From: Dehalococcoidia bacterium
Lineage (GTDB): Bacteria > Chloroflexota > Dehalococcoidia > Dehalococcoidales > Fen-1064
DNA: 64,000 nucleotides
Reading direction: 5' to 3'
Assembly (NCBI GenBank): GCA_011171075.1
Contig: DUFD01000044.1
Span: 49,494 to 113,493, forward strand
The notes beneath the pieces were generated by a model. That model did no database searches and had not been told where the DNA came from. It worked only from the letters and a program-made list of their open reading frames with translations. The position numbers were made by a program, and so were the translations under genes. The first letter of the stretch is position 1. The number at the start of each line of letters is the position of its first letter. This document shows positions 21,719 through 37,431 of the stretch, in pieces.

Positions 21719-21951
21719 ACAATAAAGGCTTCAGTATTTAAAAAGCAAGTAGACCCTGCACCAGTTACCTTACTGTCCAAGTGTATTGTAATACTATAGC
21801 GTAGAGGAGCGTGGTTTTGACAGGTGATGCTCATCTTGAGGCAGCACCGAACTGTCATCGTGGTTGCCTTATTACGAATGGAAGACCATATGTGAGTGAA
21901 TCATGGATGCATGCGCTGAACTGCGTTAGGATGAGTTCGTTACTAACTGGT

Positions 21952-22638
21952 TCAGTTTATCAGGTCCATCTCCTTAAGCCTGAGCCACATGGTCGACGTG
22001 GGTACGTCGAAGGCTATCGCCATCCCGTCTACATCACTGAGCTCCAACCATTGCTCTCTCACGCGCTCCTGGGGCATGAGGACGCATATGGCAAAGTAAT
22101 CGGCCAGCAATTCGTTGAAGGAACCCTGGTTACCCCCTCTTTGTTTGAATTTAGGGGTCTGGCAACAGTTATGAGCGATAATGTGGAAGGCCTCATGGAA
22201 CAGAGTAAACCGTTTCCGAGATGGAGATATTGCGTCCGATACCTGTATTACCCAACCATCCGGCATATACCAGGTAGCCGCATAGCAAGCTCGGAGGTCA
22301 AGGGGACGTACTTCAATGGGATGCTCTTCGCTGGCCAGTTCGATGAGATTGGTCGGCACTGGTAGTTCATCGGCCCTGTTACGCCCGAACTTGTGTTCCG
22401 CCAGCCTCTCGACATGCTGCATTATCTCTCCACCGCATGGCTTCACCTGGTGAAAGTCATCCGGGAGGAAATGGTCATCACTGTTAATCAGCTGGTTGAA
22501 CCTGTCCTTATCTGTGTCAGGACAGTAGCCACCGCTCAGTCGGGCAGAGCAACTACTGAACTGAGGACAGTGCATCCCATTACCAGCGCTCAGATAAGAC
22601 CAGAGTTGAGTTTCCCAATTAGAGGCTTTGCTTGCCAA
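21952..22638 (-). CDS. ImmA/IrrE-family zinc metallopeptidase with N-terminal Cys-cluster domain
   Basis: RKRFTLFHEAFH and ELLADYFA..LMP; N-terminal C-x5-C-x8-C; TTG start at 22638 after purine-rich RBS, overlapping XRE gene. Confidence 0.88.
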   Translation of the reverse strand: MASKASNWETQLWSYLSAGNGMHCPQFSSCSARLSGGYCPDTDKDRFNQLINSDDHFLPDDFHQVKPCGGEIMQHVERLAEHKFGRNRADELPVPTNLIELASEEHPIEVRPLDLRACYAATWYMPDGWVIQVSDAISPSRKRFTLFHEAFHIIAHNCCQTPKFKQRGGNQGSFNELLADYFAICVLMPQERVREQWLELSDVDGMAIAFDVPTSTMWLRLKEMDLIN

Positions 22639-23005
22639 GCCTCTTCTCTCTCCGGCGCTCGATGAGATCTTCAATCATTATGATGATGTCCTCATCGAGT
22701 TCGTTGGGATACTTCAGCTGGGCATACTCTCTGAATTCCGGCCACTCAGAGGTCGGCGACTGCTTGATTTCTGGCAGGTGGCCGGACATGGAAAGTATCT
22801 TCTCCACGGAGACACCACTGTAGGCGGCCAGCTTGCGACAGGAGGCGGTGCTGGGGACGTCCTCACCAGAGAGCCAACGGCCAACCGTAGGGTGGCTAAC
22901 ACCCACGTCATGGGCTAGCTGGCTCGGGAGACGTCGACGGCGTTTCATCAGGTTTTCGAGGAATGTGACTAACTGGGGCGCTGCTTTGTTATTTAAAGTA
23001 CTCAT
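22619..23005 (-). CDS. XRE-family HTH transcriptional regulator
   Basis: SQLAHDVGVSHPTVGRWLSGEDVPS..C.KLA HTH plus acidic C-terminal domain; ATG at 23005. Confidence 0.9.
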   Translation of the reverse strand: MSTLNNKAAPQLVTFLENLMKRRRRLPSQLAHDVGVSHPTVGRWLSGEDVPSTASCRKLAAYSGVSVEKILSMSGHLPEIKQSPTSEWPEFREYAQLKYPNELDEDIIIMIEDLIERRREKRLGKQSL

Positions 23006-23011
23006 ATGTAT

Positions 23012-23057
23012 ATTATAAATGAAAGAATATATTTTTTGCAAAACCTAAGTTTTGCAA
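23012..23057 (-). promoter_or_regulatory. XRE promoter with overlapping perfect palindrome (putative operator)
   Basis: Minus-strand TATAAT 23017-23012, TTGCAA 23041-23036; TTGCAAAAC-N4-GTTTTGCAA at 23036-23057. Confidence 0.7.
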
Positions 23058-23123
23058 TAGTTTCTCTGTCGGTGTTGACTTGGTTTCTACCTATGTCTCC
23101 GAGTATTCTCCACCAAACAGCGA

Positions 23124-23303
23124 CTAATATGTCTCGTCTTCGAAATCTATAACTGCAGTTATTGGTTTCCTGACGACATTAAGCTCCTTCAGCTCAAGCC
23201 GATAACCGCACATAAGACATTGCTGGTACCAGCCGTCTACATCCTTGTCTATGTATGTATCTCCCCCGCAGCGGGGACAGTCCTTCAATCTCCAGGTTAC
23301 CAT
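23124..23303 (-). CDS. Small zinc-ribbon protein (59 aa)
   Basis: CPRCGG..CLMCG; RBS AAGGGGGTG before ATG 23303. Confidence 0.8.
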   Translation of the reverse strand: MVTWRLKDCPRCGGDTYIDKDVDGWYQQCLMCGYRLELKELNVVRKPITAVIDFEDETY

Positions 23304-23352
23304 CTGCTTCACCCCCTTCCACATGCACCCACACCCTTTTAGGAACTACTTA

Positions 23353-23395
23353 ATTATAAATGTGCCAGGAAGCATCGTATGTGACATAAGTCTCG
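23353..23395 (-). promoter_or_regulatory. Crp-type box with class II promoter for Zn-ribbon gene
   Basis: TGTGACataaGTCTCG (23380-23395), centred about -41.5 relative to minus-strand TATAAT (23358-23353). Confidence 0.7.
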
Positions 23396-23482
23396 TTCGG
23401 GGGGATAGTGTTACGTTTGAGGATAAATACAATCAGCAATCAGCGAATATAGTTAGAGGCTGGTCTGGCCGGAAAAAGTCTT

Positions 23483-23692
23483 CTAGACTTCGTTATCAAA
23501 AACTATTTCGTAGGCGCATATTATGGCATTGCTGGGGCAGACAAGCTCGCACATGGTGCACCAACCGCAATCATCGGTTTCGATAATAGTAATTCTGTTA
23601 CTGGTCATCACAATAGCCCCACATTGGCATACACTTACACACAGACCGCAGCAGTCGCACTTTGCCAGGTCAAGTTTAGGCATTTCAAGCAA
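23483..23692 (-). CDS. 2x[4Fe-4S] ferredoxin
   Basis: CxxCxxCxxxC twice (CDCCGLCVSVC; CGWCTMCELVCP). Confidence 0.92.
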   Translation of the reverse strand: MLEMPKLDLAKCDCCGLCVSVCQCGAIVMTSNRITIIETDDCGWCTMCELVCPSNAIICAYEIVFDNEV

Positions 23693-23711
23693 TTTACTCT
23701 CTCCAGGTTCA

Positions 23712-23755
23712 ACTTTATCCTCTGCGTCACTTATATGTCTGTGACATTTGTCTCA
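23712..23755 (-). promoter_or_regulatory. Crp-type box with class II promoter for ferredoxin
   Basis: TGTGACatttGTCTCA (23740-23755), about -42.5 relative to minus-strand TAAAGT (23717-23712). Confidence 0.7.
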
Positions 23756-23771
23756 CTGCAGACGTGCTAAA

Positions 23772-24443
23772 TCAAGCGGATGCCTCCACCATGTTCTCTA
23801 AGGCTTTTCTGTCTGTAATCCGAATGCGGTTCCGCTCGAGCTTGATAGCCCCTTCCGCTTCAAGGGCCTTGAGTGAGCGGGCAACGACCTCGCGGACAGA
23901 CCCTACCATCGCAGCCATCTCCTGTTGCGTAAGTCGTGTCCCGGGAGCAGTACCGTTACCAGCGTTCTCCAGCAGTACTCTTGCTACCCGGCCGATGACA
24001 TGCCGGAAAGACAGGTCCTCGATGAGTGACATCAGTTGTCGTGTCCGCTCGGCAAGGACCCTGGTAGTGTTCAGTGCCACTCTGGGATAATCGCGGAGAA
24101 GGGTGTGCAGTTCAATTCTGCTTATTCCGTATAGTGTCACCGGTGCCATCGCCTGTGCGCTAACGGGCGATATCGCGTCATCGAAGATAGCGATGTCGTT
24201 GAACGCTTCACCCGGACGGACGATGCTCAGGATTTGCTCCTTACCATCGGATGATGTCTTAAATACCTTGATGGCGCCGGATGCCACGAAGAAGAGCTCT
24301 CCAACCACCTCGCCCTCGAGCTGGATAATTTCACCACGCTCGACCTTACGTTCGGAGAAGGACTGGCCGATAGAGTCAAGCTCGTCATCGTCCAGCCCGC
24401 TGAAGTAGGGTATGGATGCCAGGAATTCTCGATTGGTTGCCAT
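23772..24443 (-). CDS. Crp/Fnr-family transcriptional regulator
   Basis: cNMP-binding-like domain, HTH LTQQEMAAMVGSVREVVARSLK; no Cys. Confidence 0.95.
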   Translation of the reverse strand: MATNREFLASIPYFSGLDDDELDSIGQSFSERKVERGEIIQLEGEVVGELFFVASGAIKVFKTSSDGKEQILSIVRPGEAFNDIAIFDDAISPVSAQAMAPVTLYGISRIELHTLLRDYPRVALNTTRVLAERTRQLMSLIEDLSFRHVIGRVARVLLENAGNGTAPGTRLTQQEMAAMVGSVREVVARSLKALEAEGAIKLERNRIRITDRKALENMVEASA

Positions 24444-24542
24444 TGCCTAACTAAAGATCCTGATTCGTTTCCGGATTCATAAGATTACACTAGCTAAGCA
24501 TGAAATTCAACTTTTACCTGCCGTAACATATGTCCGATGCCA

Positions 24543-24586
24543 TGTAACTTAGGTCACATACGAAGGTAGACCGTGGATTTTAAAAT
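24543..24586 (+). promoter_or_regulatory. Crp-type box with class II promoter for hsp20
   Basis: TGTAACttagGTCACA (24543-24558), about -42.5 relative to TAAAAT (24581-24586). Confidence 0.72.
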
Positions 24587-24643
24587 ATTACTTAGGTCCG
24601 GGAAGTGGGACTTGGCGGAAAAATATAGAAGGAGGTGTTTTAT

Positions 24644-25138
24644 ATGGTACTTGATAGATGGCAACCTACCAGAAGGTTACCGTGGAGGTTATTACGGGAG
24701 CTTGAGGAGACGGGACGGCAGTTCGACAGCCTGTTTGATACGCCATTCTGGCCTGCAATATGGCGCCGACTGCCAGCTCAGGAGCGTGAGTGGTCGCCGG
24801 CAATAGAGGTCTTTGAGAAGGAAGATAAATACGTTGTCAAGGCGGAACTCCCCGGGTTGAAGGAAGAGGACGTAGACATTTCGGTCAGCGATGATACTCT
24901 TTGTCTCAAGGGTGAGAAGAAGACTGAACACGAGGTCAAAGAGGACGAATACCACTGGAGTGAGCGGACCTATGGCAGCTTCCTCCGCACGATAAGGTTA
25001 CCCTCGAACGTGGACACCAAGAAGATTGATGCCGAATACGAGAATGGCATGCTTGAGATTACCCTTCCGAAGATGGCCGAAGTCAAACCAAAGAAGATAA
25101 CGGTTAAACCCAAGAAAAGCGAAGGGACTGGCAAGTAG
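24644..25138 (+). CDS. Small heat-shock protein Hsp20
   Basis: V.AELPG, SER.YGSF.R.I.LP, A.YENGML.I.LPK; GGAGGT RBS. Confidence 0.96.
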   Translation: MVLDRWQPTRRLPWRLLRELEETGRQFDSLFDTPFWPAIWRRLPAQEREWSPAIEVFEKEDKYVVKAELPGLKEEDVDISVSDDTLCLKGEKKTEHEVKEDEYHWSERTYGSFLRTIRLPSNVDTKKIDAEYENGMLEITLPKMAEVKPKKITVKPKKSEGTGK

Positions 25139-25194
25139 TCTGTTGAACACCGTCCCACTCCCCGAATACTGCCGGTTTGACTCGATGCGCAGCT

Positions 25195-26460
25195 TCAAGG
25201 CTGCGCATTTTCATTATCAGAGGCATTAAGACGCGGACTTCTGCCCCACCACAGGAGTCCTGCTGTGGCGACAAAGGCCACCATGCCGATTGTTCCCCAG
25301 ACAAACCAGGGGTCTTGTGGGAAGGCGTCAAGCAGGATACCACCTGCCAGCGGTGCCAGCGACATGCTCAGGCTCTGGCTTAGACCGAAGAATCCCATGT
25401 AGCGCCCCCGGTAGTCTCGCGGTGAAAGCTGCCCGACAACGGAGAGAGTTAACGGTGTGAATACTATCTCGCCGGCGGTAATGACTACCATTGCGGCCAT
25501 GGCCCAGCCGAAGTTGTGCACACCACCTAATGACAGGTATCCGAGGGCATAGAAGAGGCTTCCCAGTGCTAGGCCTCGTGCCCTGGTCAGTCTGCCTGCC
25601 CAGCGTGCTACAGGGTATTGAAAGAGCACCACCATGATTCCATTAGCGGTGAGTAGCAGGCCGTACTGTGCGGTGGAAAAACCGATGCGGTCTACCGTGA
25701 ATACGGACAGAGTGCTCCCCATCTGTCCCATGGTGACGAAGACCAGAAGGCATAATACAGTGAACACTAGGAACAGTTGGTCTCTGGCTACGGAGAACAT
25801 GCTGCCGAAGGGTACATGCTCTCTGGTTCCCTGGAAAGACTCTCCGAGAAAAAAGAATATAAAGGTGAAGGTAAAGACACTCGAAAAAGCAGCTATCGCA
25901 AAGAGCCATGAGTAGGGTATGAAGGTTATCAGGTAACCGCCCAGTGCCGGTCCGGCTGCCCATCCCACGTTTTGCCCCACCCGCAGGACGCCGTAGGTCT
26001 CGGTGAGGCGGTCGGGTGGCGACAGGTCGGTAATCATGGCCGCAATGGCAGGACGCATTGACATGCCCACAGCCTGTCCGCTGATATAAGTAATCACTAT
26101 TGCCCAGACCGGCGCGGAAGCGGCTACCAGGGCTGCCAGTCCTGAGTAGATAAAAAGCCGAACTATCGAAGCCCCAAGGATAAGACGTCTTCGCCCGAAT
26201 CGGTCGGCGAGTACCCCGCCTATCATCTGGGTGGCCGAAGAGCAGATACCGCTGATAAGGTATAGTGTTCCAATAAGTGTCATAGGTAAACCACGTTCCT
26301 GGTGCAGGTACAGGGCAAAAAAGGGAAGACAGATAGAGAAACCAGCCGAGGCGAAGAGTTGAGTACCGGCGATAATCCACACCCCGCGCGGGAACCGACC
26401 GAAGACATCGCGGCTCAGGCGTTGTTTTATCTCTGAATACGTATCCGGTACAAATGGCAA
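25195..26460 (-). CDS. MFS transporter (12 TM)
   Basis: GGVLADRFGRR motif A, RGRYMG; start reset to TTG 26460. Confidence 0.88.
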   Translation of the reverse strand: MPFVPDTYSEIKQRLSRDVFGRFPRGVWIIAGTQLFASAGFSICLPFFALYLHQERGLPMTLIGTLYLISGICSSATQMIGGVLADRFGRRRLILGASIVRLFIYSGLAALVAASAPVWAIVITYISGQAVGMSMRPAIAAMITDLSPPDRLTETYGVLRVGQNVGWAAGPALGGYLITFIPYSWLFAIAAFSSVFTFTFIFFFLGESFQGTREHVPFGSMFSVARDQLFLVFTVLCLLVFVTMGQMGSTLSVFTVDRIGFSTAQYGLLLTANGIMVVLFQYPVARWAGRLTRARGLALGSLFYALGYLSLGGVHNFGWAMAAMVVITAGEIVFTPLTLSVVGQLSPRDYRGRYMGFFGLSQSLSMSLAPLAGGILLDAFPQDPWFVWGTIGMVAFVATAGLLWWGRSPRLNASDNENAQP

Positions 26461-35544: not shown

Positions 35545-37431
35545 ATGGCGAGACTTTTAGACCGAATCGATAGTCCATCAGACCTGAAAGAACTGACACC
35601 GCTGGAGCTACAACAGCTAGCTTCTGAAATCAGGGAGGAACTCGTATCGGTCGTTTCTGTCAACGGAGGCCACCTGGCTTCCAATCTGGGCGTTGTCGAG
35701 CTCACCATTGCCCTGCACAGGGTCTTCGATAGTCCACGCGACAAGCTTGTCTGGGACGTAGGGCATCAGGCATATACCCACAAGCTCCTAACCGGTCGGA
35801 GGGACCGTTTTCCCACGCTACGGCAGGCTGGCGGACTGTCCGGTTTTACAGACCGCACGGAGAGCGAGCATGACCACTTTGGCGCCGGCCATGCCAGTAC
35901 CTCGATTTCGGCCGCCCTCGGGATGGCGGTGGCCCGTGACCTGTCCGGTGATAACTATAACGTGGTTGCTATCATCGGCGATGGGGCTGCTACCGGCGGG
36001 ATGGCACTTGAGGGGATGAACCAGGTGGGGCACCTTAGCTCCCGGTTGATTGTGGTGCTCAATGATAATGGGATGTCGATTTCACCGACCGTCGGTGCTC
36101 TGGCCAAGCTGCTTGGTAAGGTGCGGTTCGATGACCGTTACCGTCGTGCCCGTGAGAGAGGCAGGCGGATTTTAATCCGACTACCACTTGGCAATAAGGT
36201 CTGGCAGGCAGGTAAACAGGTAGAGACCGGGGTGAAGGGGATGTTCATGCCGACCACCTTCTGGGAGGAGCTTGGTTTTGCCTACATGGGACCGGTCGAC
36301 GGACACAATGTCCGTGAGCTTGAGATGGCCCTGGCCCAGGCGCGTGACTACCGCGAGCGGCCAATCCTGCTCCACGTTGTGACTACCAAGGGGAAAGGTT
36401 ACCTTCCGGCCGAAGGGGATGCCGTCTATTTCCACGGGATTCCGGCGCAGGGTGGAGACAACCGGGAAATACCCACCTATAGCGAGGTGTTTGCCCAGAC
36501 AGCGCTCCGGCTGGCCCGTGAGGAACCCCGAATTGTAGTAATAACGCCGGCTATGCCGGAGGGGAACTGCCTGAGCACTGTCGCCGCTGAGTTTCCGGAG
36601 CGCGTGTTTGACGTTGGTATCTGTGAGCAGCACGCGGTCACCTTTGCTGCCGGACTGGCTACCCAGGGCTATATTCCGATAGTAGCCATCTATTCCACCT
36701 TTTTACAGCGCTCCTACGACCAGATTATTCACGACGTCTGTCTGCAGGACCTGCCTGTGGTCTTTGCCATCGACCGTGGCGGGATTGTTGGTGATGATGG
36801 GAAGACTCACCAGGGTAGCTTTGATATCTCCTATCTGACAATGGTGCCCAATCTGATTGTGGCTGCACCGAAAGATGAAGACGAGCTTCAGCATCTTCTC
36901 TATTCAGCAACCAAGTCCGTACATCCCATGGCGGTACGTTATCCTCGTAGCGCCGGACTCGGCGTGGATATGGTACCCGAATTGCACTTGATACCTGCAG
37001 GAGAAGGGGAACTGTTAAGGGACGGCATAGATGTTGCTATTATTGCCATCGGGTCGATGGTAGCTCCGGCCGTGGAGGCTGCTGAGGAACTGGCTGCCTC
37101 TGGTATCGAGGCGGCCGTTGTCAATGCCCGCTTTGCCAAACCTCTTGACCGCAAGCTTATTCTGGAGGTTGCCAAGCGTATAGGACGTGTAGTCACGGTG
37201 GAGGAGAACACGCTTAGCGGTGGCTTTGGTAGCGCTATCACTGAGTTGCTTCAGACGTCACAGGTGGGCGATATAAAAATAGTAAGTATGGGCCTTCCTG
37301 ATGAATTCATAGAGCACGGTTCTCAGATGAGCCTTCGCTCCAGATACGGTCTCGATGCTGCCGGGATAGTCCGGCAAGTAAATGCTCTGGTTTCGGCTAT
37401 GGACAGTGCGAGAACCGCCGTCGATTATTAG
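35545..37431 (+). CDS. dxs: 1-deoxy-D-xylulose-5-phosphate synthase
   Basis: GGHLASNLG, WDVGHQAY.HK, GDGA..GG, IYSTFLQR, DG.THQG. Confidence 0.98.
   Translation: MARLLDRIDSPSDLKELTPLELQQLASEIREELVSVVSVNGGHLASNLGVVELTIALHRVFDSPRDKLVWDVGHQAYTHKLLTGRRDRFPTLRQAGGLSGFTDRTESEHDHFGAGHASTSISAALGMAVARDLSGDNYNVVAIIGDGAATGGMALEGMNQVGHLSSRLIVVLNDNGMSISPTVGALAKLLGKVRFDDRYRRARERGRRILIRLPLGNKVWQAGKQVETGVKGMFMPTTFWEELGFAYMGPVDGHNVRELEMALAQARDYRERPILLHVVTTKGKGYLPAEGDAVYFHGIPAQGGDNREIPTYSEVFAQTALRLAREEPRIVVITPAMPEGNCLSTVAAEFPERVFDVGICEQHAVTFAAGLATQGYIPIVAIYSTFLQRSYDQIIHDVCLQDLPVVFAIDRGGIVGDDGKTHQGSFDISYLTMVPNLIVAAPKDEDELQHLLYSATKSVHPMAVRYPRSAGLGVDMVPELHLIPAGEGELLRDGIDVAIIAIGSMVAPAVEAAEELAASGIEAAVVNARFAKPLDRKLILEVAKRIGRVVTVEENTLSGGFGSAITELLQTSQVGDIKIVSMGLPDEFIEHGSQMSLRSRYGLDAAGIVRQVNALVSAMDSARTAVDY

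What the first reader, a model, noticed from the sequence alone, without database searches (positions are those of the whole stretch)
21952..25138. Candidate two-tier stress-response island: Crp/Fnr activator regulon next to an XRE repressor and IrrE-type protease switch
Seen: six contiguous genes (IrrE-like protease, XRE, Zn-ribbon microprotein, ferredoxin, Crp/Fnr, Hsp20), three matched Crp-type boxes and one palindrome. No integrase, phage or defence gene lies next to them. Known: ImmA/ImmR, IrrE/DdrO and CapP/CapH are protease-repressor switches, usually tied to mobile elements, DNA damage or defence operons. Inference: the switch is a resident chromosomal circuit linked to a redox, nitrosative or heat stress regulon. 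The Crp-activated Zn-ribbon gene is co-directional with xre-irrE and I see no U-tailed terminator between them. I do not know this combination from the literature.
Basis: partly seen in the sequence, partly recalled or inferred. Interest (0 to 1): 0.75.

Follow-up and report, generated by a model that had tools for sequence, protein, structure and literature searches.

The report
Two unrelated regulators sitting side by side
The six genes and their DNA motifs are real, but they form two separate regulatory modules (a Crp-type activator with its small local regulon, and a repressor plus protease pair) that are direct neighbours only in this one genus, so the proposed integrated stress island is not supported.

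Summary
Observation confirmed. All six genes, the three Crp-type boxes and the palindrome are present, and no integrase, phage or defence gene lies within about 15 kb.

Interpretation only partly supported.

Module A is a cysteine-free Crp-family activator. Its three TGTGAC-N4-GTCACA boxes are centred at -41.5/-42.5 of the hsp20, ferredoxin and Zn-ribbon promoters. The core crp-fdx-znr triad with its boxes is conserved across Dehalococcoidales: fdx in 28 of 29 crp loci, znr in 19 of 29, at least one box in 28 of 29. None of the 29 had xre or irrE beside it.

Module B is an overlapping xre plus M78 (ImmA/IrrE-like) peptidase pair with a leaderless xre. It occurs in 22 of 27 related loci, among varied, mostly housekeeping neighbours. 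The two proteins are predicted to bind: ipSAE 0.74, best control 0.00. The peptidase has an unannotated N-terminal domain with three conserved cysteines in place of the IrrE/CapP GAF-like domain.

The modules touch only in this genus. Sister genera have a ~7 kb acyl-CoA operon between them, and another family has them on separate contigs. Both are resident chromosomal genes. I found no evidence that they are functionally coupled.

The parts
21745..21759 (-). Terminator-like hairpin plus T-run downstream of the peptidase gene. Likely end of the xre-peptidase transcript.
   Evidence: Consensus scan. Not tested further.
21952..22638 (-). M78 (ImmA/IrrE-like) metallopeptidase. N-terminal domain with three conserved cysteines (C36, C42, C51) followed by the peptidase domain (H160-E161-x-x-H164, E188). 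The ORF is open up to TTG 22674. The likely start is TTG 22638, overlapping the xre stop by 20 nt.
   Evidence: Pfam PF06114 41.4 bits. Homologues are mostly 228 aa. Atlas record starts at residue 13. Invariant residues. Fold matches PprI Z 9.8 and CapP Z 9.7 over residues 81-240.
22619..23005 (-). XRE-family regulator, 128 aa. Five-helix HTH (11-73), flexible linker (74-90), two C-terminal helices (91-98, 105-126).
   Evidence: HTH_3 28.4 bits. Family alignment with invariant WPEFR.Y...Y...L..D....IE.LI. Model pLDDT 81.
23012..23041 (-). xre promoter: TTGCAA (23041-23036), 18 nt spacer, TATAAT (23017-23012). The A of the ATG at 23005 lies 7 nt after the -10, so the mRNA is predicted to be leaderless.
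   Evidence: The same -10-to-start spacing is seen in most related loci. No experimental start site.
23036..23057 (.). Perfect palindrome TTGCAAAAC-N4-GTTTTGCAA centred at 23046.5, which is -41.5 from the predicted xre start. Candidate XRE operator.
   Evidence: Unique in the genome. A related palindrome, AAACCCTAGGGT(TT), lies in the promoter spacer of G001 and G002 but not G003.
23124..23324 (-). Zn-ribbon microprotein (CPRCGG...CLMCG). Start at ATG 23324 or, as in its relatives, ATG 23303. Member of a multi-copy family.
   Evidence: Paralogues: 3 in G000, 5-6 matches in G003 and G006.
23353..23395 (-). znr promoter: Crp box 23380-23395 (centre 23387.5) and TATAAT 23358-23353. Box centred at -41.5.
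   Evidence: Box conserved in G001, G002, G003, G006, G008, G030.
23483..23692 (-). Small ferredoxin with two CxxCxxCxxxC motifs (2x[4Fe-4S] type).
   Evidence: Pfam Fer4 and Fer4_7. Directly downstream of crp in 28 of 29 order-wide loci.
23712..23755 (-). fdx promoter: Crp box 23740-23755 (centre 23747.5) and TAAAGT 23717-23712. Box centred at about -42.5.
   Evidence: The most conserved box order-wide.
23772..24443 (-). Crp-family transcription factor, 223 aa, with no cysteine. Recognition helix starts GSVREVVAR.
   Evidence: cNMP_binding 72 bits and HTH_Crp_2 61.3 bits. Closest solved relative is a Thermus Crp-family protein, 4ev0, E 2e-28. 21 of 30 orthologues have no Cys and none has a conserved Cys. 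It is the only full-length Crp homologue found in G000.
24543..24586 (+). hsp20 promoter: Crp box 24543-24558 (centre 24550.5) and TAAAAT 24581-24586. Box centred at about -42.5. It lies about 107 bp upstream of the divergent crp start codon.
   Evidence: Conserved in G001-G003 and G008.
24595..24611 (+). Conserved 17-nt element GGTCCGGGAAGTGGGAC in the predicted hsp20 5' leader. Role unknown.
   Evidence: Conserved in 5 of 5 genomes compared, including another genus. No Rfam family.
24644..25138 (+). Hsp20/alpha-crystallin small heat-shock protein. AGGAGG 24630-24635 precedes the ATG.
   Evidence: Pfam HSP20 97.5 bits. Terminator-like hairpin at 25184-25209.

Best explanation
The locus holds two independent regulatory modules. 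A lineage-specific gene order has placed them next to each other.

Module A.
- A cysteine-free Crp-family dimer binds three TGTGAC-N4-GTCACA boxes centred at -41.5/-42.5. This is class II geometry, with the proximal half-site taking the place of a -35 element.
- In response to an unknown small-molecule or protein signal (not cAMP, not an Fe-S cluster of its own) it activates hsp20, a 2x[4Fe-4S] ferredoxin and a Zn-ribbon microprotein.
- The crp-fdx-znr core is ancient in Dehalococcoidales. hsp20 is a family-level addition.

Module B.
- An XRE repressor is translated from a leaderless mRNA and autoregulates at a palindrome overlapping its -35.
- The overlapping downstream gene encodes an M78 Zn-peptidase. 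It docks on the repressor's last helix through its beta-hairpin.
- When activated, the peptidase cleaves or otherwise inactivates the repressor, as in ImmA/ImmR, IrrE/DdrO and CapP/CapH.
- Its conserved three-cysteine N-terminal domain is the likely input domain.

Coupling. The two modules could only be coupled by unterminated read-through from the znr promoter.

Shown here: gene identities, motif positions and their conservation, synteny, the predicted fold and the predicted binding.

Inferred: activation rather than repression by Crp, proteolysis, the signals, and the operator assignment.
For: Module A.
- Box geometry.
- Boxes survive in otherwise diverged intergenic DNA of G001 and G002. 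They sit at orthologous sites in G003, G006, G008 and G030.
- A crp orthologue was found in 57 of 121 genomes of the order at E<=1e-45.
- In 29 crp loci: fdx 28, znr 19, hsp20 2, at least one box 28, at least two boxes 21. The matrix came from this genus only.
- Genome scan: the three local boxes score 21.7-22.6 bits and the next best 17.8.
- Only one full-length Crp homologue in G000.
- The recognition helix GT(A/V)REV is conserved. The cAMP-phosphate Arg-Ser position reads N/S-P-x-S-A-Q in 30 of 30 orthologues. Equating this with CRP R82/S83 is from my recall.

Module B.
- xre lies immediately upstream of the peptidase gene in 22 of 27 loci. The other 5 are cut by a contig end or are fragments.
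- H160, E161, H164 and E188 are invariant in 104 sequences.
- Fold matches PprI (Z 9.8), CapP (Z 9.7) and Mtb PrpR (Z 9.1), then drops to Z 3.4.
- PADLOC capP E 9.7e-17.
- Predicted complex: ipSAE 0.74 against a best control of 0.00. This mark was reached by 116 of 157 solved complexes and 2 of 215 mismatched pairs. The three runs agree in at least 96% of contacts, and partner pLDDT is at least 79. The interface is peptidase 123-144 with XRE 104-121. Since complexes of this family are known, the pass may reflect likeness to them.

Separation of the modules.
Against: - No expression data. No RNA run was listed, so co-transcription of znr-xre-irrE is untested. The simple scan finds no terminator in the 118-nt gap.
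- In three genera of one family the two modules stay within about 7 kb of each other. This could be ordinary inherited synteny or a loose functional link.
- The palindrome is not conserved as such. G001 and G002 have a related one at a different position in the promoter, and G003 has none that I could recognise.
- No further operator copy was found in G000 or G002, so the XRE regulon is unknown.
- The predicted interface is a helix on a beta-hairpin, not an extended strand in the active-site cleft. It does not show cleavage.
- In G006 the xre (81% identical) is followed only by a 32-residue peptidase remnant, so the repressor can persist without its partner.
Confidence: 0.7

Rival explanations
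1. One reading: an integrated two-tier circuit. Crp-activated transcription from the znr promoter reads through into xre-irrE. The stress that turns on the Crp regulon would then also raise the switch proteins, and the Zn-ribbon protein might modulate the protease.
For: - znr, xre and the peptidase gene are co-directional, with a 118-nt gap and no terminator-like site.
- This arrangement is kept in all four genomes of the genus.
- The modules are within about 7 kb in two sister genera.
Against: - xre has its own strong promoter right at its start codon, in this genome and in most relatives.
- None of 29 order-wide crp loci had xre or irrE beside it.
- Of the 25 related xre-irrE loci outside the window's genus, none had znr, crp or hsp20 on the DNA held.
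- Every gene around the block is syntenic within the genus, so adjacency there carries no functional weight.
Confidence: 0.12
2. The xre/M78 pair is a toxin-antitoxin-like or addiction cassette, or a domesticated remnant of a mobile-element immunity module. It would have no host stress regulon and would only regulate itself.
For: - Two overlapping genes, regulator first, with a palindrome at their own promoter and no second operator copy in the genome.
- Patchy distribution: 12 of 41 related genomes at E<=1e-3.
- Variable neighbours.
- Decay of the peptidase gene in G006.
- The peptidase is the fastest-evolving gene of the block: 59-61% identity within the genus against 74-93% for the other ten genes.
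- Xre/COG2856 pairs have been proposed as TA systems (title and abstract start of PMC10538038 in the listing; passages of PMC6868357).
Against: - Single copy of the peptidase in G000.
- Native GC content.
- Same chromosomal position next to the abh and mfs genes in another genus, G008.
- Only 1 of 18 loci had a recombinase.
- The XRE is unusually conserved: mean column identity 68% across the order. That points to a conserved DNA target or partner.
- An orphan paralogue with the same C-terminal domain sits at a divergent promoter elsewhere in G000.
Confidence: 0.13
3. The M78 protein acts as a non-proteolytic anti-repressor. It would bind the XRE's C-terminal helix and block oligomerisation, as reported for Rir/Crh of phage TP-J34.
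For: - The predicted interface covers the XRE's last helix and an exosite hairpin, not the active-site cleft.
- PMC6868357 (passages) describes this second mechanism for COG2856/XRE pairs.
Against: HExxH and the downstream Glu are invariant in 104 family members. That argues for retained catalysis.
Confidence: 0.15

Closest known systems
IrrE(PprI)/DdrO of Deinococcus
   Same: - A chromosomal, non-mobile M78 metallopeptidase plus an XRE repressor that autoregulates.
- The peptidase domain fold matches PprI (Z 9.8).
- The repressor has an HTH, a flexible linker and C-terminal helices, as described for DdrO (abstract and passages of PMC6868357).
   Different: - No C-terminal GAF-like domain. Instead there is a roughly 100-residue N-terminal domain with three conserved cysteines.
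- The genes here are adjacent and overlapping.
- No sequence match of the XRE to DdrO at E<=1.
- No regulon motif was found elsewhere in the genome.
CapP/CapH regulators of CBASS and other defence operons
   Same: Best profile match of the peptidase (PADLOC capP E 9.7e-17; PDB 7t5t E 0.005; fold Z 9.7). Partnered with an XRE protein.
   Different: - Only positions 3-153 of the 242-position capP profile are matched.
- No defence operon is nearby.
- The XRE has no capH hit.
ImmA/ImmR of ICEBs1 and phage Rir/Crh
   Same: A compact peptidase without a GAF domain, encoded next to its XRE repressor, with autoregulation at the repressor's own promoter.
   Different: - Not in a mobile element.
- Gene order here is xre first.
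- The extra N-terminal cysteine domain.
CRP/GlxR-type Crp regulators (closest solved: Thermus 4ev0, actinobacterial CRP/GlxR)
   Same: - Domain architecture.
- CRP-like TGTGA-N6-TCACA sites at class II positions.
- R-E-x-x-x-R recognition helix. Its significance is from my recall.
   Different: - The cAMP phosphate-binding Arg-Ser is replaced by a conserved N/S-P-x-S-A-Q motif.
- A very small, local regulon.
- Always followed by a ferredoxin gene.
FNR / HcpR-type redox or nitrosative-stress Crp regulators
   Same: Crp-family activator with a ferredoxin-like gene in its regulon. The resemblance to the HcpR hcp-frdX regulon is from my recall and was not tested.
   Different: - No N-terminal Cys cluster and no conserved Cys at all.
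- The box is CRP-type, not TTGAT-N4-ATCAA.
- No strong box elsewhere in the genome.

Membership tests
M78 / ImmA-IrrE (COG2856) metallopeptidases | Pfam Peptidase_M78 domain above the gathering score | tested here: met
   41.4 bits against a cut-off of 22, residues 117-231
M78 / ImmA-IrrE (COG2856) metallopeptidases | HExxH plus a downstream Glu as the third zinc ligand | tested here: met
   H160, E161, H164 and E188 are invariant in 104 sequences. E188 aligns with the CapP motif. Its role as a ligand is inferred.
M78 / ImmA-IrrE (COG2856) metallopeptidases | Adjacent XRE-family partner gene | tested here: met
   Overlapping xre in the window. Present in 22 of 27 related loci; the other 5 are truncated.
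M78 / ImmA-IrrE (COG2856) metallopeptidases | Binds and cleaves its XRE partner | not testable with these tools
   Binding is only predicted: ipSAE 0.74 vs best control 0.00, a mark reached by 116 of 157 solved complexes and 2 of 215 mismatched pairs. Cleavage needs biochemistry.
IrrE/PprI and CapP subfamily (peptidase plus C-terminal GAF-like sensor) | C-terminal GAF-like domain after the peptidase domain | tested here: not met
   The protein ends with the peptidase domain (Pfam match to residue 231 of 240). Only positions 3-153 of 242 of the capP profile are matched. Fold matches cover model residues 81-240 only.
CapH/CapP defence-operon regulators | Located beside, and controlling, an anti-phage defence operon | tested here: not met
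   The PADLOC scan covered the six genes of the block: a defence-family hit only for the peptidase itself, weak RmrA and PDC hits (E>1e-3) for xre and znr, none for fdx, crp, hsp20. The flanking ORFs were scanned with Pfam only and are housekeeping.
XRE repressors targeted by M78 peptidases (ImmR, DdrO, CapH) | N-terminal HTH_3 plus a C-terminal helical domain joined by a flexible linker | tested here: met
   HTH_3 28.4 bits. Model: helices 11-73, low-confidence linker 74-90, helices 91-98 and 105-126.
XRE repressors targeted by M78 peptidases (ImmR, DdrO, CapH) | Operator palindrome at its own promoter | tested here: inconclusive
   Perfect 9+9 palindrome over the -35 in G000. A related one in the spacer in G001 and G002, none recognised in G003. 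Binding not tested.
Crp/Fnr transcription factors | cNMP-binding-like domain plus C-terminal Crp-type HTH | tested here: met
   PF00027 72 bits and PF13545 61.3 bits
FNR-type oxygen sensors | Cysteine cluster that ligates a [4Fe-4S] cluster | tested here: not met
   No Cys in the 223-aa protein. 21 of 30 orthologues have none, and no Cys column is conserved.
cAMP-dependent CRP | Arg-Ser pair that binds the cyclic phosphate | tested here: not met
   Aligned to 4ev0, the position reads S-P. It reads N/S-P-x-S-A-Q in 30 of 30 orthologues. Which residues bind cAMP is from my recall.
Type II toxin-antitoxin (Xre/COG2856 type) | Growth-inhibiting toxin neutralised by the Xre partner; usually multi-copy or mobile | not testable with these tools
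   The operon layout fits. Single copy and native context do not. Toxicity is untested.
Small heat-shock proteins | Alpha-crystallin (HSP20) domain | tested here: met
   PF00011 97.5 bits

The most novel reading that the evidence does not exclude
Both modules could be unrecognised redox sensors of strict anaerobes.

(a) The M78 peptidase family carries C36, C42, C51 and H168 (C36 and C51 invariant like the catalytic residues, C42 and H168 in at least 90% of 104 sequences). It may hold a second metal site or a thiol switch next to the active-site helix. Oxidants or oxygen would then directly license cleavage of a highly conserved leaderless repressor. This would be a one-protein version of the zinc/redox signalling proposed for IrrE.

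(b) The order-wide crp-fdx-znr triad may be a split FNR. A cysteine-free Crp would rely on its always-adjacent, self-induced 2x[4Fe-4S] ferredoxin, and perhaps the Zn-ribbon protein, as a detachable Fe-S sensor.

In this genus, read-through would then wire the two sensors in series.
Probability: 0.12. Interest if true: 0.7.

Novelty: new variant of a known kind. Interest (0 to 1): 0.4.

Why it matters
- Dehalococcoidales are hard to cultivate, and their regulation is known mostly from annotation.
- This analysis gives two testable regulatory units. The first is a compact Crp regulon (ferredoxin, Zn-ribbon protein, sometimes Hsp20) conserved across the order, with clear binding sites. The second is a lineage-specific version of the protease/repressor switch with a new cysteine-bearing input domain and no link to mobile or defence genes.
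- It adds an example alongside Deinococcus of such a switch serving the host chromosome.
- It also shows that the attractive two-tier island is a product of local gene order. That matters before anyone designs experiments on the six genes as a unit.

Tried and rejected
- RNA evidence: no RNA holder was listed for 21900-25200.
- Rfam: nothing at gathering score in the locus or in 8 related loci apart from unrelated PYLIS and cobalamin hits.
- Earlier findings: three look-ups by place, sequence and words returned nothing.
- Divergent small ORFs upstream of xre in other loci are not conserved.
- The recurring TTGTCAATA(G/C) motif upstream of xre is a generic -35 context. It has 36 copies in G000, so I dropped it as a specific element.
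- ACGGNCA/TGNCCGT repeats near many xre promoters are a possible operator for the common SHATVSRW-type XREs. In G000 they appear only at the orphan paralogue. The single perfect inverted repeat, inside dxs, is at chance level.
- PrpR as a precedent for an Fe-S cluster in an IrrE-like scaffold: its ligands lie in the GAF-like and C-terminal parts, which are not equivalent to the N-domain here.
- Foldseek against PDB gave no hit at E<=1e-3.
- The Atlas search with the N-terminal domain found only the family's own cluster and sub-threshold rows.
- Searches for further copies of the palindrome or its core found none. One search covered one strand only.
- Literature: searches listed no paper on a Dehalococcoidia Crp-ferredoxin-Zn-ribbon regulon or on this xre/M78 family. 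The library is partial, so this is not proof that none is in print.

Full report
**What is there**

The minus strand carries five genes in a row, and one gene is divergent.
- M78 peptidase: ORF 21952-22674, likely start TTG 22638.
- xre: 22619-23005.
- Zn-ribbon gene: 23124-23324.
- Ferredoxin with two 4-Cys motifs: 23483-23692.
- Crp-family regulator: 23772-24443.
- hsp20, divergent on the plus strand: 24644-25138.

The 22 flanking ORFs between 4.9 and 40 kb are ordinary housekeeping genes. The GC content of xre and the peptidase gene (52-55%) equals the genome's 52.6%.

**The Crp boxes**

- The consensus with up to 2 mismatches matches five times in the window. That count alone is not significant: 5 of 100 shuffles reached it.
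- Three of the five lie in the three intergenic regions of this block.
- Reading the minus strand places each box centre 41.5-42.5 bp upstream of the start site implied by a -10 hexamer. The hexamers are TATAAT for znr, TAAAGT for fdx and TAAAAT for hsp20. This is the class II activator position; that rule is established knowledge from CRP and FNR.
- The boxes are islands of identity in diverged intergenic DNA of two congeners.
- They recur at orthologous positions in G003, G006, G008 and G030.
- A genome-wide scan ranks them first to third (21.7-22.6 bits), with the next site at 17.8. That matrix included them.

**The Crp module across the order**

- A crp orthologue (E<=1e-45) is present in 57 of 121 sampled genomes of the order.
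- I examined 29 loci with 1.5 kb flanks, using a matrix built only from 9 sites of this genus:
  - ferredoxin gene after crp in 28;
  - Zn-ribbon gene after that in 19;
  - hsp20 nearby in 2;
  - xre in 0 and the peptidase gene in 0;
  - at least one box in 28, and two or more in 21.
- The conserved unit is therefore crp-fdx-znr with a box before fdx and a box before znr.
- The regulator has no cysteine. 21 of 30 orthologues have none and no Cys column is conserved.
- The position that binds the cAMP phosphate in CRP reads N/S-P-x-S-A-Q in all 30. The residue equivalence is from my recall.
- It is therefore neither FNR-like nor likely cAMP-dependent. Its signal is unknown.
- It is the only full-length Crp homologue detected in G000.

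**The repressor/protease pair**

- The peptidase belongs to a family of more than 300 proteins, mostly about 228 aa, annotated where named as ImmA/IrrE metallo-endopeptidases of Dehalococcoidia.
- In 104 aligned members H160, E161, H164, E188, C36 and C51 are invariant. C42 and H168 are at least 90% conserved.
- The predicted structure (pLDDT 79.5) matches PprI (Z 9.8), CapP (Z 9.7) and M. tuberculosis PrpR (Z 9.1) over the C-terminal 160 residues, then nothing above Z 3.4.
- There is no GAF-like domain.
- Apart from the PrpR alignment, which starts at model residue 31, the N-terminal cysteine-bearing ~80-100 residues match nothing outside the family.
- xre lies directly upstream in 22 of 27 related loci. 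The remaining 5 are truncated.
- The XRE is strikingly conserved (mean column identity 68%). It has an invariant C-terminal signature WPEFR.Y...Y...L..D....IE.LI.
- Its model shows an HTH, a floppy linker and two C-terminal helices.
- The pair is predicted to bind: ipSAE 0.74 against a best control of 0.00. This mark was reached by 116 of 157 solved complexes and 2 of 215 mismatched pairs. The runs agree in at least 96% of contacts, and partner pLDDT is at least 79. The XRE's last helix sits on the peptidase beta-hairpin 123-144.
- Related complexes are known, so this shows likeness and does not prove binding.
- By analogy with DdrO and ImmR (abstract and passages of PMC6868357), I infer cleavage in the loop 99-104 or the linker 74-90.

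**The xre promoter**

- TTGCAA, an 18-nt spacer and TATAAT end 6 nt before the ATG. The mRNA is therefore predicted to be leaderless.
- The same spacing holds in most relatives.
- The perfect palindrome is centred at -41.5 and covers the -35. It is unique in the genome.
- G001 and G002 carry a related palindrome inside the spacer, and in G002 it is again unique. G003 has none that I recognise.
- I treat it as the probable XRE operator, with moderate confidence.

**Are the two modules one system?**

- Within the genus the whole 11-gene neighbourhood is syntenic, so adjacency there is uninformative.
- In G008 and G006 a ~7 kb acyl-CoA operon separates znr from xre.
- In G006 the peptidase gene has decayed to a 32-residue remnant.
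- In G030 the modules lie on different contigs among unrelated genes.
- Neighbours of the pair in 18 further loci are heterogeneous (139 ORFs scanned). They include methyltransferase, heterodisulfide-reductase-like, PFOR, GatB/SecG, two-component and large surface-protein genes. There was one serine recombinase, two HTH_17 genes and two extra XRE genes.
It is not tied to the Crp regulon either.

**Loose ends**

- G000 has an orphan XRE paralogue (60% identical, same C-terminal domain) at a divergent promoter. It faces another HTH gene, membrane proteins and a 649-aa surface protein. It may be a second substrate of the single peptidase.
- The peptidase is the fastest-evolving gene of the block: 59-61% identity within the genus against 74-93% for the other ten genes.

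**Verdict**

- The 'resident switch' and 'Crp regulon' readings are supported.
- The 'two-tier island' reading is not supported.
- Both modules are variants of known kinds. The new features are a Cys3 N-domain on an M78 peptidase and an order-wide crp-fdx-znr triad.

**What I saw of each paper**

- PMC6868357: abstract and nine passages.
- PMC6765138: two passages.
- PMC10538038, PMC7907104, PMC10904395, PMC13228613 and PMC12828697: search listings with abstract starts only.
- The lambda cI/PRM comparison, the Makarova TA prediction and the HcpR regulon are from my recall. I did not consult them here.

Noticed in passing
window 23483-24443 and loci L075-L101, L032, L033: An order-wide conserved triad: a Cys-free crp, then a small 2x[4Fe-4S] ferredoxin, then a Zn-ribbon microprotein, with Crp boxes before fdx and znr. 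Counts in 29 loci: fdx 28, znr 19, at least one box 28. The limited searches listed no paper on it.
   Followed up: partly
window 24595-24611: A 17-nt element GGTCCGGGAAGTGGGAC sits just downstream of the hsp20 -10. It is conserved in 5 of 5 genomes, including another genus (G008). It could be an operator for a second regulator or an RNA element. No Rfam match.
   Followed up: partly
G000 contig C19:17174-17536 (locus L070 5160-5573, minus strand): An orphan paralogue of the XRE (60% identical) with no peptidase beside it. Its leaderless-type promoter carries a TGTCCGT half-site and a GTACTC-AA-GAGTAC palindrome. It is divergent to another HTH_3 gene, membrane proteins and a 649-aa surface protein.
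   Followed up: partly
G003 C23 end / C73 start; G000 C8:51062-51226 at a contig end: The Zn-ribbon gene belongs to a multi-copy family (5 matches in G003, 6 in G006, 3 in G000). Assemblies break inside or next to copies.
   Followed up: partly
locus L042 (G006 C58:55000-56399): An xre 81% identical to the window's is followed only by a 32-residue remnant of the peptidase gene. The protease has been lost while the repressor persists.
   Followed up: yes
loci L037 8700-11935 and L038 8800-15500: In two sister genera a ~7 kb operon lies between znr and xre. It encodes an FmdB-like Zn-ribbon protein (seen in L038 only), CoA-transferase subunits, enoyl-CoA hydratase, 3-hydroxyacyl-CoA dehydrogenase, a glyoxalase-fold protein and an old-yellow-enzyme-type reductase. 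It is missing at this site in the window's genus.
   Followed up: partly
loci L045-L067, upstream of xre: Repeated ACGGNCA/TGNCCGT half-sites lie between xre and a divergent strong promoter in many loci. Several of those divergent genes encode very large surface proteins (beta-helix/NosD, DUF11/CARDB, Ig-like) or a serpin.
   Followed up: partly
L057 18995-19094; crp-like hits in G028, G048, G129, G070: A PYLIS_3 (mttB pyrrolysine insertion) Rfam hit at 53.4 bits in a Dehalococcoidales MAG. Single in-frame TAG codons also appear in some crp paralogue matches, a possible hint of TAG read-through in parts of the order.
   Followed up: no
window 36299-36315: A perfect palindrome ACGGACA-CAA-TGTCCGT inside the dxs coding region. 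By my rough estimate about one such match is expected by chance in the genome.
   Followed up: no
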